NCBI GenBank assembly: GCA_963804165.1
Contig: CAWDPO010000045.1
Coordinates: 1 to 64,000 of the forward strand
Direction of reading: 5' to 3'
Length of the DNA stretch: 64,000 bases
Origin: an uncultured delta proteobacterium
Lineage (GTDB): Bacteria > Desulfobacterota > Binatia > UBA9968
Shown: positions 44,555 through 49,329 of the stretch, one piece after another
How the letters are laid out: each line of letters opens with the position of its first letter
How positions within the stretch are numbered: the stretch's first letter is position 1
Program-made: the position numbers and the translations under genes
Notes under the pieces: model-generated
Databases searched by the model: none
What the model was told of the DNA's origin: nothing
What the model saw: only the letters and a program-made list of their open reading frames with translations

Positions 44555-46153
44555 GAGCCTGTGAAAAAATATCCAAATAACGGCCGCTTCTACACTGGCG
44601 CGAGCCGAGTGCAGGGTTTTAGAAAAATCGTCGTTGCCGGCGGCGCAATTGTCCTCCACCGAGTACAACGCGAGACTGGGAGGCGTGGTGCTCGCAGTGG
44701 TGTTTTGCGTCTGTGCGCTGGTTTTTGCCAAGAGGTGTTACGCCGGTTGGATGAGCGTCACTGCCCGCATCAAGTTGTGCGCGAGGGCGTACCACAACGA
44801 CACCGCTTTGACCTTGTTAAGCCCGCGCACCAAAAACTGGCTAAGCCCGCGGCCGCGCGCAATGGCGTTCACACATTCAGCGGTGGCGGCGCGTTGCTTG
44901 TAAATCTCCTTAGCCGCCTCAGTGCCCATGCGCTGGCGCCACTGGGCAAGCGCCTGGCTGTCATCGGGCAGCGGCACATACGGATCACGGCTGGAGTTTC
45001 TAGGGCGGCGCACTGGAGCATAGACGATAGTGCCCCCTCTGTGGGCATCTTCAATGTCAGCATCGTTGGCAAAACCACCGTCGACCAACCACTCGGCGGG
45101 ACGTTGTTTATAGCGCCGTTGGACTTGCTCGAGCATCGGGGAAAGCTGGCCCCCATCGCTGCCGCAGCTGTTTACTTCGACTCCGACAATGATCTGGCTT
45201 TGGGGAGTGCTCGCCAACTGCACGTTGTAGGCAGGGCGAAAACCGCCGTCCGCCATCTTCATCACTCGCGCCTGAGCATCGGTGCTCGATGCCCTCGGCT
45301 CGCTGCGCTTTCGGTATTGCTCCTCGCTCTCGTTCTCTTTTTTCTCCCCCTTTTTCTTGTTCTTTTGCTTCTCGACCTCAGCCAATTGCTCCAGCGCTTG
45401 GGCCAAGCGCGCTTCACGTTCCTTGCTCGCTCGCTCCCGGGCCGCGCACCGACGCCGGTTGCTAACATGAGGATCGGCATCGATTTCGTCCTTGAGCGCT
45501 TGGACTTGCGCTCGCGCTTGCTTAAGACACAACTCCAATGTCGAGCGGCGGCGAAAAGATCCCGCCCCCGCACTGGCACGCACCCGTATCCCGTCCTGCG
45601 CCACGCACTCCAGCCGCACCAAACCCTTATTGACCAACACCGCGACACTTTCGCTGAGCAGCTCGTCGAGCACATCTACCCGGGCGCAGCGGAAATCCGA
45701 CAACGTGTGGTGGTTCACATTTACCCCACCACAGATCCATCGATACGCGTCGTGCGTCTCGCTCAATCGTTCGATTTCCCGCGCGCTCCCCACTGCATCC
45801 ACCGTCGCGTACAGCCACAGCGCCATCAGAATCTTAGGGTCAATGGCTGCTCGACCCGCCCGACCTTCTACCGAGCCGATCTCGGCATACAGCGCCGACA
45901 AATCCAGTCTCTCCACGAATGCCCACACGTTGCGCACCGCATGCTCCGGCCCTACCGTGGCCTCAAGGTCCACCGGCCGAAGCGCAATCTGATCACGCTG
46001 CGCTGTCAACACCCTCGGCGCTCCACTCGGGGGTGGCCTCTCGGACCGAGCCGCACTACTCTCTGGCATACACGGAAAAATAAAAACTTGTTCATCCATG
46101 AATCGACAATCTCATACGAGCGCTTGCTTGGCGAGTGATTTTTTCACAGGCTC
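44555..46153 (-). mobile_element. IS1182-family insertion sequence (1599 bp)
   Basis: Perfect 16-bp TIRs GAGCCTGTGAAAAAAT (44555-44570) / ATTTTTTCACAGGCTC (46138-46153); TGA duplicated on both flanks. Confidence 0.88.
44738..46099 (-). CDS. IS1182-family DDE transposase
   Basis: DP..L.ALWLYA..GSAREIERL..AYRWICG..HHTLSDFR; QDG, PAYNVQ, VDGGF, R...AECVNA. Confidence 0.9.
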   Translation of the reverse strand: MDEQVFIFPCMPESSAARSERPPPSGAPRVLTAQRDQIALRPVDLEATVGPEHAVRNVWAFVERLDLSALYAEIGSVEGRAGRAAIDPKILMALWLYATVDAVGSAREIERLSETHDAYRWICGGVNVNHHTLSDFRCARVDVLDELLSESVAVLVNKGLVRLECVAQDGIRVRASAGAGSFRRRSTLELCLKQARAQVQALKDEIDADPHVSNRRRCAARERASKEREARLAQALEQLAEVEKQKNKKKGEKKENESEEQYRKRSEPRASSTDAQARVMKMADGGFRPAYNVQLASTPQSQIIVGVEVNSCGSDGGQLSPMLEQVQRRYKQRPAEWLVDGGFANDADIEDAHRGGTIVYAPVRRPRNSSRDPYVPLPDDSQALAQWRQRMGTEAAKEIYKQRAATAECVNAIARGRGLSQFLVRGLNKVKAVSLWYALAHNLMRAVTLIQPA

Positions 46154-46205
46154 TGAGCACAACCGAAGGATTCAGGATGACAACTTCAATTGTCATTCTG
46201 AGCAG

Positions 46206-46381
46206 CAGACTGTATGAGAACTCTCGCGGAGCCCTTCGACGGTGCTCAGGGCGAACGGATAAGTACTCAATTTTTAATGAGACCACGCCGTTCGTGGTGA
46301 GTAGCTTGTCCTGAGCCCTTCGGCTTCGCTCAGGATAAACTCCGTCGAAGGAAACCATGAATGGTGTTTTCACACAGTCTG
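46206..46381. mobile_element. 176-bp MITE with IS1182-like ends
   Basis: TIRs CAGACTGTATGAGAA / TTTTCACACAGTCTG (13/15); GCAG target duplication (46202-46205, 46382-46385). Confidence 0.7.
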
Positions 46382-46503
46382 GCAGAGCGAAGAATCCTTC
46401 CTGCTGCAACTTTGTGAAGCGCCCCGCACTGTCCACTAATATGAGTCACTACCGATTAATTTCGAGTGTCGATCATTCCGTAATCCTCTGCTAAGCTATC
46501 GGT

Positions 46504-46947
46504 ATGAGTTGGCAAGACAACCTTATCGAGACTCCTCAGCAGATTCGCGATTTGATCGAGCACACCAAGCGCATCGCGGTGCTCGGCATCAAAACCGAAG
46601 CGCAAGCCGATCAACCCTCGGTCTATGTGCCGATGTATCTGCAGAAGGCGGGTTTCGAAATTATTCCCGTGCCGGTCTATTACCCGGAGGCCACGGTGAT
46701 TCTCGGTGAAAAAGTCTATCGCAAGTTAATCGATATTCCCGGCGACATCGACATGATCGATGTCTTTCGCCGCTCCCACGATGTCGCCGGTCACGTCGAC
46801 GACGTCCTCGCGAAGAAACCGAATTCAGTTTGGCTCCAATCGGGCATCCGCAACGACGCCGCGGCGGAGCTCTTCGCCAAAGCCGGCATCAAGGTCGTGC
46901 AAGATCGCTGACTGATGGTCGATCACCGGCGGTCCGCCGGTAAATAA
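46504..46947 (+). CDS. CoA-binding protein (YccU-like), candidate selenoprotein with UGA at 46909-46911
   Basis: IAVLG, IPV, DVFRRS, VWLQSG, VVQDR-UGA-LMVDHRRSAGK*; SECIS-like hairpin downstream. The family call is firm; readthrough is inferred. Confidence 0.8.
46925..46941 (+). promoter_or_regulatory. Candidate bacterial SECIS element
   Basis: ACCGGCG-GTC-CGCCGGT stem-loop; the G-starting loop lies about 20 nt after the UGA. Confidence 0.6.
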
Positions 46948-46973
46948 ATTGTAGGAGCGACCGGCCGGTCGCC

Positions 46974-47837
46974 CTACGCAGCCAACCGCTGCGCTTTCAG
47001 TTGCCGCGCGATGAACGCTTTGATCCTTTCATAAGCACGGTCCGTCTGTGGACTCGGCTTGGCAACCCATCGATGCTCGGCGCCTTGGAACACCTCGAAT
47101 TCGCATTCGCCGCCGGCCGCCTTGTAAGTGGCGGCGAAGCGCTCTTGTACTGCAGGCAAAACATTGTCATCCAGTTCGCCCTGCAGGATATACATCGGCG
47201 GTAATGAAACCTTTTCGCCGCGCTCGAGGATCTTCTGTGGATTGCCTTCGTGGATGGTCTCCCAGGGATTAAAATAAGTTTTGCTGTTCTGGATCATCTC
47301 TTGCCACTGCCTCCGTTCCGCTTGCTGGAAGCGAGCGAATGGGTCGCTAACCGGTGAGCGCACCACGAGGTAGGGCAAAGTCGCGTCGACATTGGGCGCC
47401 TCCGGCAAAGCGTGCGCGTTATAGCGCGGATCGTGCGGGCGCATGGCGCATAATTCAATTTCGTGACCGCCGCTCGAGCTGCCCAGTGCGGCGACGGTAG
47501 CCGGATCGCCGTTCCATTCTCGCGCCTTCGCTTTGAGCCAACGAACGCCATAGTTGGCGTCCTGTACCGAAGCCGGATAAGGCGCTTCCGGCGCGCGGGT
47601 CAGGTCGATGGCGACGACTAAAATACCGCTCCGCGCCAGACTTTCATCCATCGGCGCATTGGCGGTGCGGTCTTGATTGTTCCAGGCGCCGCCGTGCAGG
47701 TCCAACAACACCGGAAACGGCCCATCGCCCTGCGGCTGATAGACCAGCGCCATCAGCTGCCGCGCCGGCGCGCGACGAAACTCAGTATCCCAAACCTTGA
47801 TTTCAAATCGGCCCAACGGATCGTATGCAATTGTCAT
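46974..47837 (-). CDS. Alpha/beta hydrolase (HSL-like esterase fold)
   Basis: HGGAW, GSSSGG, D and H of the catalytic triad. Confidence 0.88.
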   Translation of the reverse strand: MTIAYDPLGRFEIKVWDTEFRRAPARQLMALVYQPQGDGPFPVLLDLHGGAWNNQDRTANAPMDESLARSGILVVAIDLTRAPEAPYPASVQDANYGVRWLKAKAREWNGDPATVAALGSSSGGHEIELCAMRPHDPRYNAHALPEAPNVDATLPYLVVRSPVSDPFARFQQAERRQWQEMIQNSKTYFNPWETIHEGNPQKILERGEKVSLPPMYILQGELDDNVLPAVQERFAATYKAAGGECEFEVFQGAEHRWVAKPSPQTDRAYERIKAFIARQLKAQRLAA

Positions 47838-47878: not shown

Positions 47879-48742
47879 TCACGCCGCCAGGCGCTTCGCT
47901 TTCAATTGCCGCGCGATAAACGCCTTCACCATTTCATGGGCGCGATCGGTTTGCGGACCAGGCCCACGCACCCATAGGTGTTCGCAGCCGGCGAAGACTT
48001 CATATTGACACTCCCCGCCGGCGGCTCGATAGGACGCGGCGAATTTTTCCTGCACTGCCGGACGAACATTGTCGTCGAGCTCGCCTTGCATGATCAGCAG
48101 CGGCACCAACGTCACTTTTTCGCTGCGATCGAGGATCTCCTGCGGGTTGCCGTCGTGGATGGTATCCCAAGGATTGAAGTAGTTCTTGCTGTTTTGCACC
48201 ATCTCGTGGCGGCCTAATTTTTCAGCGTTCAAGTAACGGGCGTAAGGATCGCTCACGGGCGAGCGCGTCGCGACGTAATTGAGCGTCGCATCGAGCTGCG
48301 GAGCTTCCGCGAGTTTATGCACGCAATAATAAGGATCGCTCGGCCGCATGGCGCAGAGCTCGATTTCGTGACCGCCGCTCGAGCTGCCGAGCGCACCGAT
48401 CGTGGCCGGATCGCCGTTCCATTCCGCCGCTTTGTACTTCAGCCATCGGACACCATAGTTGGCGTCTTGCACCGATGCGGGATAGGGCGCCTCTGGCGCG
48501 CGAGTCAAGTCGATCGCCACGACGAGCACACCGCTTCGGGCCAAACTCTCGTCCATCATGGCGTTGGCGCTGCGGTCCTGGTTGTTCCAGGCGCCACCGT
48601 GTAAATCCAACAGCACGGGGAACGGTCCACCGCCTTGCGGTTGATAGACTCGCGCCATCAGCGTCCGCTTGGGCGCGCGGCGAAACTCGACATCCCAAGC
48701 CTTAAAATCGAAACGAGCTAAAGGATTGTATGCAACGGCCAT
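47879..48742 (-). CDS. Alpha/beta hydrolase, tandem paralog
   Basis: Same motifs, highly similar to 46974-47837. Confidence 0.88.
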   Translation of the reverse strand: MAVAYNPLARFDFKAWDVEFRRAPKRTLMARVYQPQGGGPFPVLLDLHGGAWNNQDRSANAMMDESLARSGVLVVAIDLTRAPEAPYPASVQDANYGVRWLKYKAAEWNGDPATIGALGSSSGGHEIELCAMRPSDPYYCVHKLAEAPQLDATLNYVATRSPVSDPYARYLNAEKLGRHEMVQNSKNYFNPWDTIHDGNPQEILDRSEKVTLVPLLIMQGELDDNVRPAVQEKFAASYRAAGGECQYEVFAGCEHLWVRGPGPQTDRAHEMVKAFIARQLKAKRLAA

Positions 48743-48759
48743 CGGGGTATCCTCCTTCA

Positions 48760-49329
48760 TCAATTAGACGTCGGCGTTTCTCCAACTTTCCAGATGTACA
48801 GCGTGCGTGATTCCGCATAATCCGAACCGTCTTCGGGAGGCTTGACGTATTCGATACGGTTGGGCTTCCAATCGTCGATGTCGAAATCATGAGCGATCAC
48901 GCGCGATCCGGGTTTTAATTGCTGCAGCTTCGGACGCAGTGCGTTGTTAAACCATTTGAACATATAGAGCGTCACCACCGTCGCCTCGGAAATATCGACG
49001 GTCAAGCCGTCCTGGGCGCGGAATTCGACTAGAGTGCTGACGCCTTCTTTCACAGCGTTTTCACGCGCCTTGGCAACCAATTCCGCGTTTAAATCGACGC
49101 CGACGCCGCGGATGCCATACTTCTTCGCCGCTTCGATGACGACGCGCCCATCGCCGCTGCCCATGTCATACAAAATATCGCCGTTTTTGATCTCGGCAAC
49201 TTCGAGCATTTTGTGAACGACATGCATCGGCGACGGCACGAAAGGGATAGTGTCCTGCGCGAAAGTCACGCGGCAGAAGGTCGCCATCAGCGCGCTGAGA
49301 AGTAAAACCCTGGTGCAGCCCTTTACCAT
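48760..49329 (-). CDS. Class I SAM-dependent methyltransferase with signal peptide
   Basis: PFVPSP, YDMGSGDGR, LKPGSRVIAHDF. Confidence 0.88.
   Translation of the reverse strand: MVKGCTRVLLLSALMATFCRVTFAQDTIPFVPSPMHVVHKMLEVAEIKNGDILYDMGSGDGRVVIEAAKKYGIRGVGVDLNAELVAKARENAVKEGVSTLVEFRAQDGLTVDISEATVVTLYMFKWFNNALRPKLQQLKPGSRVIAHDFDIDDWKPNRIEYVKPPEDGSDYAESRTLYIWKVGETPTSN

What the first reader, a model, noticed from the sequence alone, without database searches (positions are those of the whole stretch)
46504..46947. Candidate selenoprotein: YccU-like CoA-binding protein with UGA at the conserved Cys and a SECIS-like hairpin
Seen: the ORF track stops at TGA 46909-46911 after VVQDR, but the same frame continues LMVDHRRSAGK to TAA 46945-46947. 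A stem ACCGGCG/CGCCGGT (46925-46941) with a G-starting loop lies about 20 nt after the UGA. Known (from memory): YccU-family proteins end in a V-x-D-R-C-x-x-x-E-H/I-like motif, so the UGA falls on the conserved Cys, and the spacing and loop G fit the general bacterial SECIS model. Inference: the UGA is decoded as selenocysteine, implying a redox or nucleophilic role for this residue in a family of largely unknown function. I do not recall this family among the classic bacterial selenoproteins, but I could not search.
Basis: partly seen in the sequence, partly recalled or inferred. Interest (0 to 1): 0.85.

Follow-up and report, generated by a model that had tools for sequence, protein, structure and literature searches.

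The report
Selenocysteine form of a CoA-binding protein
A small CoA-binding protein gene that looks cut short by a stop codon almost certainly reads that codon as selenocysteine in place of the family's one invariant cysteine, which marks that residue as chemically active in a widespread protein family of unknown function.

Summary
ORF 46504-46911 stops at TGA, and the frame runs on for 11 codons to TAA 46945-46947. The 147-residue product is a complete single-domain CoA-binding protein (Pfam PF13380; Thermus TT1466 / Pyrococcus PH1109 fold). The TGA sits on the family's invariant Cys.

- **Conservation:** the same TGA is found in 26 of 62 orthologues read in this bacterial class. They form two separate lineages, and Cys codons fill the column everywhere else.
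- **Downstream constraint:** the 10 codons after the TGA are constrained at synonymous sites. A hairpin with a G-first loop follows the TGA in 23 of 24 Sec forms, against 1 of 206 Cys forms. It resembles the SECIS of this genome's own fdhA.
- **Machinery:** the genome has selA, selB, selD and tRNA-Sec.
- **Natural control:** the one genus member with Cys is the genome where no Sec machinery was found.

The family is absent from a 2026 catalogue of 119 prokaryotic selenoprotein families, so this is probably an uncatalogued one. The likely chemistry is a selenenyl-sulfide with the thiol of bound CoA. This is inferred from the reported CoA modification of what appears, at motif level, to be the same Cys in B. 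subtilis YneT.

The parts
46504..46947 (+). Full coding sequence of the selenoprotein: 147 codons plus the TAA stop. It is a single-domain CoA-binding protein (PF13380).
   Evidence: Translation. Pfam PF13380 scores 110 bits against a cut-off of 22.8 and covers residues 22-141, across the TGA. PDB 1iuk aligns residues 11-143 at E 1e-26. The AlphaFold model has pLDDT 97.6, with TM 0.85/0.92 to 1iuk.
46909..46911 (+). In-frame TGA read as selenocysteine (residue 136), on the family's invariant Cys column.
   Evidence: It aligns to the Cys of DRCLMVEHKR in 1iuk. C136 is invariant in 38 homologues. TGA is at this column in 26 of 62 orthologues read, and TGC or TGT in the other 36.
46912..46924 (+). 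Spacer between the UGA and the hairpin (codons L137 M138 V139 D140 and the start of H141).
   Evidence: CTG (L137) and GTC (V139) are the only codons used in all 14 genus orthologues. Only D140 varies, GAT or GAC.
46925..46941 (+). SECIS-like hairpin: stem ACCGGC(G)/(C)GCCGGT with apical loop GGTCC (or GTC). It lies inside codons H141-G146.
   Evidence: Fold. CAC CGG CGG is codon-invariant in 14 of 14 orthologues. A perfect stem of 6 bp or more with a G-first loop occurs in 23 of 24 Sec forms against 1 of 206 Cys forms. The shape and distance match the genome's own fdhA SECIS, a 6-bp stem with loop GGUCU starting 15 nt from the U of UGA.
46945..46947 (+). True stop codon, TAA.
   Evidence: Orthologues end 10-12 codons after the UGA with TAA, TAG or TGA.

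Best explanation
Bases 46504-46947 encode one 147-residue protein of the single-domain CoA-binding family (PF13380; relatives include YccU/YneT, Thermus TT1466 and Pyrococcus PH1109). UGA 46909-46911 is decoded as selenocysteine.

**Recoding (inferred from the standard bacterial mechanism).** The hairpin at 46925-46941, 13 nt downstream and inside the last codons, acts as the bacterial SECIS. SelB carrying Sec-tRNA(Sec) binds its G-containing apical loop and delivers Sec to the UGA in the A site. The ribosome then finishes the last 11 codons, which build the C-terminal helix.

**Position of the residue.** Sec replaces the one Cys that is invariant in the family. It sits at the N-terminal cap of the last helix.

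**Proposed chemistry (inferred, about 0.45).** The protein binds CoA in its Rossmann-like pocket. Residue 136 exchanges with the CoA thiol, forming and resolving a Se-S (in relatives S-S) bond. On this view the family handles oxidised CoA species or protein-CoA mixed disulfides, and Sec makes the exchange faster.

**Origin.** Sec forms arose, or were kept, in two lineages of one bacterial class, each with its own hairpin sequence.

The confidence given (0.88) is for the selenocysteine recoding.
For: **1. The column.** The UGA aligns with the Cys of solved homologues. That Cys is one of 8 invariant columns among 38 homologues of 36-84% identity.

**2. Sec/Cys alternation.**
- In a draw of 400 genomes of the class, 62 had an orthologue at E<=1e-30.
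- I read the column in 62 loci pooled. Results: genus g1, 19 TGA and 1 TGC; g268, 2 TGA; g3, 5 TGA and 14 Cys; 11 other genera, 21 Cys.
- In a phylum draw, 0 of 128 matching genomes had a TGA inside.
- In the protein collection, 97 of the 120 best hits end exactly at ...VQDR, and 22 run through with Cys or a longer end.

**3. The tail is translated.** LMV[DE]HR is kept in both Sec and Cys forms. It forms helix 137-145 at high confidence.

**4. RNA-level constraint.**
- Among 14 gapless genus orthologues (73-90% nt identity), 75 positions have an invariant degenerate amino acid. A single codon is used at 4 of 68 positions before the UGA and 5 of 7 after it (Fisher one-sided p = 1.4e-4).
- Without the unpublished genome G005 the counts are 5 of 70 against 5 of 7 (p = 2.4e-4).
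- Mean third-position identity is 0.55 in codons 1-135 and 0.87 in codons 137-146.

**5. The hairpin goes with the UGA.** 23 of 24 Sec forms against 11 of 206 Cys forms have a perfect stem of 6 bp or more at 12-21 nt. With a G-first loop the counts are 23 of 24 against 1 of 206.

**6. A second hairpin.** The g3 Sec forms carry a different hairpin (GGUCGCC-GGC-GGCGACC) at nearly the same place. Their tail residues are changed relative to their Cys sisters: HRSPAAT against HRSLA.

**7. Machinery in the genome.**
- selA, selB and selD are adjacent on contig 16.
- tRNA-Sec scores 76 bits, and ARAGORN calls it SeC with anticodon tca.
- selD and fdhA carry the canonical Sec motifs.
- selA is present in 24 of 25 Sec-form genomes.

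**8. Natural control.** G741 is the only g1 genome with Cys. It keeps the stem but has lost the loop G. No selA, no selD above cut-off and no tRNA-Sec above the gathering score were found in it; it is 92% complete.

**9. Chemistry.** B. subtilis YneT is reported to be CoA-modified in spores at Cys126 in the peptide TVIMDLC126IK (PMC8127865, passages read). This fits the V-x-x-D-x-C column. Homologue P0033 shows the same VVQDLC variant.
Against: - No experiment shows selenium in this protein.
- Hairpin stability alone does not separate Sec from GC-rich Cys forms. Mean MFE is -12.4 kcal/mol for Sec (n=21, including three duplicate rows L082-L084, GC 0.56) against -12.3 for Cys forms with GC>=0.60 (n=20). 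All 100 Cys forms together give -7.25.
- A few Cys forms of the same class have a stem at the same place (L113/L206, L193, L169). Part of the hairpin could therefore follow from GC-rich codons for HRR..G.
- The Sec forms amount to about two evolutionary events, so the counts overstate independence.
- No Rfam family matched, and bSECISearch could not be run.
- No redox partner lies beside the gene. The neighbours are a convergent alpha/beta hydrolase in 3 of 4 loci examined and variable genes upstream.
- The equivalence of YneT Cys126 and residue 136 rests on a motif, not on an alignment made here.
- The position of the Cys relative to the CoA thiol in solved structures could not be checked.
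Confidence: 0.88

Rival explanations
1. The UGA is a real stop. The lineage makes a 135-residue protein lacking the Cys and the last helix, and the downstream frame is an untranslated remnant.
For: Gene callers store 97 of the 120 best hits as products that end at ...VQDR. TGA is an ordinary stop in this genus: it ends the same gene in G018, G019, G021 and G022.
Against: The remnant would have to keep LMVDHRR and its reading frame in 21 species at 73-90% nt identity, and again in a second lineage. Synonymous-site conservation after the UGA is the opposite of what a decaying tail would show. The lost part is a confident helix and holds the family's invariant residue. The one genome without Sec machinery has Cys.
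Confidence: 0.04
2. The UGA is read through by a near-cognate tRNA (Trp or Cys) or by some other non-Sec route, and the hairpin merely slows the ribosome.
For: Nothing here measures which residue is inserted. Stem-loops after stop codons can stimulate read-through in general (recalled).
Against: The codon is always TGA and never TAG or TAA, and it sits on a Cys column. It occurs only in genomes with selA: 24 of 25, the exception being a 670-contig assembly. The hairpin shares stem length, distance and a GGU-type loop with the genome's own fdhA SECIS.
Confidence: 0.03
3. Sequencing or assembly error, or a recent pseudogene in this one genome.
For: The genome is a draft: 46 contigs, 81% complete, 5% contamination. 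Two orthologues are damaged, G018 by a frameshift and G019 by an extra TAA.
Against: The same TGA occurs in 25 other genomes and in about 96 further protein clusters from metagenomes. Contigs of three other runs cover the site, and no difference is listed there among the 40 shown.
Confidence: 0.01
4. Sec is inserted, but residue 136 is not a CoA-thiol exchange site. It might serve as an acyl acceptor (a seleno-ester taken from acyl-CoA), as a persulfide or selenium carrier, or as a metal ligand.
For: No partner gene or assay constrains the chemistry. The fold is shared with the CoA-binding domains of acyl-CoA synthetases that handle acyl groups. Only a single Cys/Sec is invariant, with no CxxC-type partner.
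Against: The apparently equivalent Cys of YneT was found carrying CoA as a mixed disulfide in vivo. Most Sec/Cys pairs catalogued so far are redox sites (review PMC13188914, section 7 read).
Confidence: 0.3

Closest known systems
Bacterial selenoprotein genes with an in-ORF SECIS, for example the fdhA and selD of this same genome
   Same: An in-frame UGA sits on a Cys column and is followed by a short G+C-rich hairpin. The stem starts 13-15 nt after the codon, and the apical loop begins with GG(U). The genes depend on selA, selB, selC and selD.
   Different: The UGA lies only 11 codons from the true stop, so the SECIS fills almost the whole remaining ORF. The protein family is not one of the 119 listed in the 2026 catalogue.
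Single-domain CoA-binding proteins (PF13380): Thermus TT1466 (1iuk/1iul), Pyrococcus PH1109 (2d59/2d5a), Klebsiella 2duw, E. coli YccU and B. subtilis YneT
   Same: Same domain, same fold (TM 0.85-0.92), same length, and the same C-terminal motif VVQDR-C/U-LMVEHRR.
   Different: Sec stands in place of the invariant Cys. All solved and named members have Cys.
Sec-containing CoA-disulfide reductase-like FAD oxidoreductase (TIGR03385 row of the catalogue)
   Same: It is a catalogued selenoprotein family named as a CoA-disulfide reductase, so it presumably acts on CoA disulfides.
   Different: It has an unrelated fold and is a flavoenzyme. In this genome the best TIGR03385 match is below cut-off and has no TGA.

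Membership tests
Bacterial Sec-UGA recoding (selenoprotein gene) | In-frame UGA aligned with Cys in homologues | tested here: met
   26 TGA against 36 TGC/TGT at one column, and Cys is invariant in 38 diverse homologues.
Bacterial Sec-UGA recoding (selenoprotein gene) | Coding sequence conserved downstream of the UGA | tested here: met
   LMV[DE]HR is kept in all forms; these residues form helix 137-145.
Bacterial Sec-UGA recoding (selenoprotein gene) | SECIS stem-loop shortly after the UGA with G in the apical loop | tested here: met
   bSECISearch was not available, so the test is by fold, codon invariance, association with TGA, and likeness to the genome's own fdhA element.
Bacterial Sec-UGA recoding (selenoprotein gene) | selA, selB, selD and tRNA-Sec in the genome | tested here: met
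   All score over the curated cut-offs. ARAGORN calls the tRNA SeC with anticodon tca.
Bacterial Sec-UGA recoding (selenoprotein gene) | Selenium actually incorporated | not testable with these tools
   Needs 75Se labelling or mass spectrometry.
CoA_binding_2 (PF13380), YccU/YneT-like single-domain proteins | Profile match above the Pfam gathering score | tested here: met
   110.1 bits against 22.8, covering profile positions 1-115 of 116.
CoA_binding_2 (PF13380), YccU/YneT-like single-domain proteins | Rossmann-like fold of the solved members | tested here: met
   pLDDT 97.6; 1iuk TMq 0.85 and TMt 0.92, rmsd 1.5.
CoA_binding_2 (PF13380), YccU/YneT-like single-domain proteins | Binds CoA | not testable with these tools
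   Inferred from family membership only.
Catalogued prokaryotic selenoprotein families (Table 1 of PMC13188914, 119 families) | The family or its domain accession is listed | tested here: not met
   no PF13380 and no CoA-binding protein row. NCBIfam release 20 has no specific model; the only hit is E 0.0024.

The most novel reading that the evidence does not exclude
This is a selenoprotein family not yet catalogued. Its Sec/Cys pair would identify the invariant Cys of the whole YccU/YneT/TT1466 family as a redox-active residue aimed at the thiol of bound CoA. That would make these proteins 'CoA-redoxins', which form and resolve CoA mixed disulfides (the protein CoAlation cycle, or CoA persulfide/disulfide handling). 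In addition, Sec would have been acquired twice within one bacterial class, each time by reshaping the last codons of the gene into a new SECIS. The one genome that lost the Sec machinery would then have reverted to Cys while keeping a relic stem.
Probability: 0.35. Interest if true: 0.75.

Novelty: new member of a known kind. Interest (0 to 1): 0.6.

Why it matters
Sec/Cys pairs are one of the few sequence-only indicators that a cysteine is catalytically or redox active. Single-domain CoA-binding proteins are widespread: 3631 clusters at 50% identity match at E<=0.001, and the family was found in 11 of 14 control genomes. Several have been solved by structural genomics, yet the PDB entries give no function beyond CoA binding.

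A selenocysteine at their one invariant Cys points experiments at that residue. It also ties in with the report that the apparently equivalent Cys of B. subtilis YneT carries CoA in spores.

On the practical side, gene callers truncate these genes. 97 of the 120 closest database entries end at the UGA, so the active residue and the last helix are missing from the stored protein sequences.

The locus also offers a compact natural series for studying how a SECIS evolves inside the last codons of a gene. The series has four states: a Sec form, a Cys form with a relic stem in a genome without Sec machinery, Cys forms without a stem, and a second Sec lineage with a different stem.

Tried and rejected
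- **A more distant Sec lineage.** Representative P0251 (133 aa, 46% identity) ends at ...VVMNR, just before the Cys column. I fetched 80 related metagenome loci. Every locus that could be read at the column had TGC or TGT, and one relative reads H-C there. P0251 is therefore probably a truncated call. No third Sec lineage was found.
- **Hairpin energy as a discriminator.** Rejected, because GC-rich Cys forms fold as well.
- **Rfam.** No relevant match at E<=10 in 46050-47050.
- **Terminator reading of the hairpin.** The consensus scan does not call it, and no T run follows.
- **Reads.** Only Logan contigs were available, and no run holds more than 0.32 of the sampled words. When laid, contigs of X2, X3 and the RNA run X15 cover 46906-46924. 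None of the 40 listed differences is at 46909-46911, but 7 rows were not shown. X15 record 6 spans 46848-46940 with 5 other letters, so it comes from a relative. This is no proof of transcription in this organism.
- **Link to Cys123-alpha of succinyl-CoA synthetase** (recalled as lying by the CoA thiol). hhalign of the family alignment against this genome's SucD gave no usable alignment (probability 0.2), so this was not tested.
- **Neighbourhood.** No conserved redox partner was found.
- **Second CoA_binding_2 protein.** The one on contig 43 (320 aa, with a long C-terminal extension) lacks the Cys.
- **Public names for the truncated forms.** The look-up was uninformative.
- **Earlier notes of this scan.** Nothing was found by words or by sequence.
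- **Papers not held.** Haft & Tolstoy 2025 and Deng et al. 2026 are not in the library. The PH1109/TT1466 search found nothing useful.

Full report
**What is in the sequence**

The ORF starting at ATG 46504 stops at TGA 46909-46911 after ...AGIKVVQDR. The same frame continues LMVDHRRSAGK to TAA 46945-46947. The inverted repeat ACCGGCG/CGCCGGT occupies 46925-46941 with loop GTC; it can also be drawn as a 6-bp stem with loop GGTCC. It starts 13 nt after the TGA. Folded alone, the 42 nt from the UGA give -14.4 kcal/mol, z = -1.92, and 10 of 200 shuffles do as well. The hairpin is real but not remarkable on its own.

**What the protein is**

- Read through, the 147-residue product matches Pfam CoA_binding_2 (PF13380) at 110 bits against a cut-off of 22.8. 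The match covers residues 22-141 and so crosses the TGA.
- Against solved structures the best match is Thermus TT1466 (1iuk, E 1e-26). There, query DR-[TGA]-LMVDHRR aligns with DRCLMVEHKR. Pyrococcus PH1109 and the Klebsiella protein 2duw also put a Cys there.
- An AlphaFold model built on 38 homologues has mean pLDDT 97.6. Residue 136 follows strand 130-132 and caps the last helix, 137-145. Foldseek gives TM 0.85/0.92 to 1iuk.
- In the alignment of 38 homologues (36-84% identity), C136 is one of only 8 invariant columns, and the consensus reads VVQDRCLxVEHRRL.
- This genome has no other stand-alone member. The other eight PF13380 matches lie in open frames of 229-1008 codons, and the 320-residue one on contig 43 lacks the Cys.

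**Sec machinery**

- The genome is a draft of 7.5 Mb in 46 contigs, 81% complete. The window is contig 45.
- selA (610 bits), selB (357 bits) and selD (385 bits, itself with one in-frame TGA) sit side by side on contig 16.
- A tRNA-Sec scores 76 bits. ARAGORN calls it tRNA-SeC with anticodon tca.
- selD reads ...AAG-U-AAK, and fdhA (contig 35) reads ...ARI-U-HSSS.
I did not test it here.

**Distribution of the TGA**

- *Relatives.* A six-frame search of 40 relatives found orthologues of 76-84% identity with one TGA inside in 15 genomes of the same genus. One of these is split by a frameshift (G018) and one also has a TAA (G019). In a second family (genus g3), 2 of 6 orthologues had a TGA. Translation shows the TGA always falls at the same column.
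- *Phylum.* In a draw of 400 genomes, 128 had a match at E<=1e-20. None had a TGA inside, and one had a TAG.
- *Class.* In a draw of 400 genomes, 62 had a match at E<=1e-30.
- *Pooled reading.* I read the column in 62 loci from these calls and. The results were g1 19 TGA and 1 TGC; g268 2 TGA; g3 5 TGA and 14 Cys; 11 other genera 21 Cys.
- *Not read.* G633 and the four g284 matches of 47-54% identity, all listed with no stop inside. The TGA counted in G464 is its ordinary stop.
- *Species collection.* In the 185,579-species collection, 77 of the 80 best loci had TGC or TGT. They were mostly titled Pyrinomonadaceae or Acidobacteriota. The 3 with TGA are identical, over the 48 nt compared, to G011, G012 and G023. 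The closest contigs are titled Candidatus Binatia or delta-proteobacterium MAGs.
- *Protein collection.* In the 5.8-billion protein collection, 97 of the 120 best hits, including the window's own product, end at ...VQDR. A further 22 run through the column (20 shown with Cys, 2 with a longer end) and 1 is a fragment.
- *Unpublished genomes.* G005 (a Sec form) and G747 and G790 (Cys forms) are among these rows. No conclusion depends on them.

**Is the tail translated, and is the RNA constrained?**

LMV[DE]HR is kept in both Sec and Cys forms.

The 14 unbroken genus orthologues align without gaps over 146 codons and share 73-90% nucleotide identity. They have 75 positions where a degenerate amino acid is invariant.
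- Only 9 of these positions use one codon in all 14. Four are among the 68 positions before the UGA. Five are among the 7 after it: L137 CTG, V139 GTC, H141 CAC, R142 CGG and R143 CGG (Fisher one-sided p = 1.4e-4).
- Other invariant Arg positions use 3-4 codons.
- Without G005 the figures are 5 of 70 against 5 of 7 (p = 2.4e-4).
- Mean third-position identity is 0.55 for codons 1-135 and 0.87 for codons 137-146.

The comparison is made within the same set of sequences, so relatedness is controlled.

**The hairpin and the UGA go together**

I defined the element as a perfect Watson-Crick stem of 6 bp or more, a loop of 3-6 nt, and a start 12-21 nt from the first base of the codon.
- 23 of 24 Sec forms have it, all with a G-first loop. 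The exception (G008) has one G-U pair. Two Sec rows were dropped: G788, whose locus is too short, and the frameshifted G018.
- Among Cys forms, 11 of 206 have such a stem: 3 of 36 in the class, 5 of 77 in the species collection, 2 of 18 in the phylum and 1 of 75 among P0251 relatives. Two loci are counted in two sets. Only 1 of 206 has a G-first loop.
- Against this reading, stability alone does not discriminate, since Cys forms with GC>=0.60 fold as well as Sec forms. A few Cys forms of the same class also carry a stem at the same place.
- The genome's own fdhA has, 15 nt from the U of its UGA, a 6-bp stem with loop GGUCU. The candidate has a 5- to 7-bp stem starting at 16-17 nt, with loop GGUCC here and GGUUC in most of the genus. 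I recall that a G, U-containing apical loop at about this distance is what E. coli SelB needs; that recollection comes from no call.

**Two lineages and a natural control**

- The five g3 Sec forms carry a different hairpin, GGUCGCC-GGC-GGCGACC, 19 nt from the U. Their tail reads HRSPAAT, where their Cys sisters read HRSLA.... The RNA structure was therefore bought with amino-acid changes.
- On a maximum-likelihood tree of 61 rows (quick search; the Sec/Cys column masked as X and only seven tail residues kept; G018 left out), the Sec label needs at least 3 changes, 2 of them forced by starred branches. The g3 Sec clade lies inside a 99%-supported g3 group that otherwise has Cys. One row, G743, is a partial with a long branch.
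- selA was found in 24 of 25 Sec-form genomes. The miss is G009, with 670 contigs, where selD lies at a contig end. It was also found in 32 of 36 Cys-form genomes.
- G741 is the single g1 genome with Cys. It keeps the stem ACCGGCG/CGCCGGT, but its loop has become CUU. In that genome (92% complete, 90 contigs) I found no selA, no selD above cut-off (best 62 bits) and no tRNA-Sec above the gathering score (46.2 against 47). The control genome G015 has all three.
- Absence in an incomplete genome is not proof, but the pattern is what loss of the Sec trait followed by a TGA-to-TGC change would leave.

**How it most likely works**

- *Shown:* the anatomy, the conservation, the RNA-level constraint and the machinery.
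- *Inferred from the established bacterial mechanism:* SelB with Sec-tRNA(Sec) binds the hairpin and decodes the UGA. Translation then ends at TAA 11 codons later.
- *Inferred more loosely (about 0.45):* residue 136 exchanges with the thiol of CoA bound in the Rossmann-like pocket.

The basis for the last point is a mass-spectrometry report that B. subtilis YneT (135 aa) carries CoA on Cys126 in the peptide TVIMDLC126IK in spores (PMC8127865, passages read). That peptide fits the V-x-x-D-x-C column, and homologue P0033 shows VVQDLC. I did not align YneT itself. A thiol or selenol at the N-terminus of a helix is typical of reactive redox residues; this is general knowledge and was not tested here.

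The neighbourhood gives no further help. A convergent alpha/beta hydrolase lies downstream in the window, G014 and G008. A solute-binding protein lies there in G004. The upstream genes vary, and the window itself has a DDE transposase there.

**Is it known?**

- The 2026 review that calls itself the most comprehensive inventory lists 119 prokaryotic selenoprotein families with domain accessions. I read Table 1 in full. It has no PF13380 and no CoA-binding protein row. The only CoA-related rows are a CoA-disulfide-reductase-like flavoprotein, HgcA and a DsbA-like/crotonase form (PMC13188914).
- Full-text searches for CoA-binding together with selenocysteine or selenoprotein returned only unrelated papers.
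- The main texts of deep-Sep, BSepDB, the GOS study, the Olavius symbiont study and Peng et al. 2016 do not mention it (term searches).
- NCBIfam release 20 has no specific model.
- Not seen: the supplements of all these papers, Haft & Tolstoy 2025, Deng et al. 2026, and the BSepDB database itself. Any of these could already hold the family.

**Verdict**

This is very probably a genuine selenoprotein (0.88) belonging to a family that the literature I could read does not list. The recoding mechanism is the ordinary bacterial one, so I file it as a new member of a known kind. Its value lies in pointing at the function of a widespread uncharacterised family and in correcting truncated annotations.

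Noticed in passing
window 44738-46099 (-): A 453-aa DDE transposase (PF13751 plus DUF772) lies directly upstream of the selenoprotein gene. Orthologous loci in G014 and G004 have an amidohydrolase there, and G008 has a molybdopterin-binding dehydrogenase subunit, so the upstream synteny is broken in this genome.
   Followed up: partly
window 46974-47837 (-) and 47879-48763 (-): Two tandem paralogous alpha/beta hydrolases (BD-FAE / Abhydrolase_3) lie convergent to the selenoprotein gene. One such hydrolase is also downstream in G014 and G008.
   Followed up: partly
window 46957-46972: A perfect 16-nt palindrome, GCGACCGGCCGGTCGC, lies between the two convergent genes and occurs once in the window. 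Near-copies follow the stop codon of the orthologues in G005, G006, G015 and G018. It may be a bidirectional terminator or a REP-like element.
   Followed up: partly
G741 (locus L169), same genus: This is the only genus member with Cys at the column. It keeps the SECIS stem but has lost the loop G. No selA, selD or tRNA-Sec was found in it (92% complete). It looks like a case of Sec-trait loss with a relic SECIS.
   Followed up: yes
G018 (L042/L046) and G019 (L035): The orthologues in these two genomes are damaged: a frameshift near codon 90 in G018 and an extra TAA near the start in G019. These are either pseudogenes or assembly errors.
   Followed up: no
own genome, contig 16: 139949-144339 (-): selA, selB and selD lie head to tail on one strand, and selD is itself a selenoprotein (G-U-AAK). 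fdhA on contig 35 is also a Sec form.
   Followed up: yes
own genome, contig 43: 23579-24903 (-): The best match to CoA-disulfide reductase (TIGR03385) is split over two overlapping frames (135 + 303 bits, both below the 579-bit cut-off). This suggests a frameshift or an assembly error in a pyridine-nucleotide disulfide oxidoreductase.
   Followed up: no
own genome, contig 43 (L051 967-1929, -): A 320-aa protein combines a CoA_binding_2 domain with a long C-terminal extension and lacks the invariant Cys of the single-domain family.
   Followed up: no
loci L208-L287 (metagenome relatives of P0251): A large soil branch of the family has the motif VVMNR-C-PKIE and a long conserved C-terminal extension (...GELxWSGVNxxI...) after the Cys. 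All members read carry Cys.
   Followed up: no
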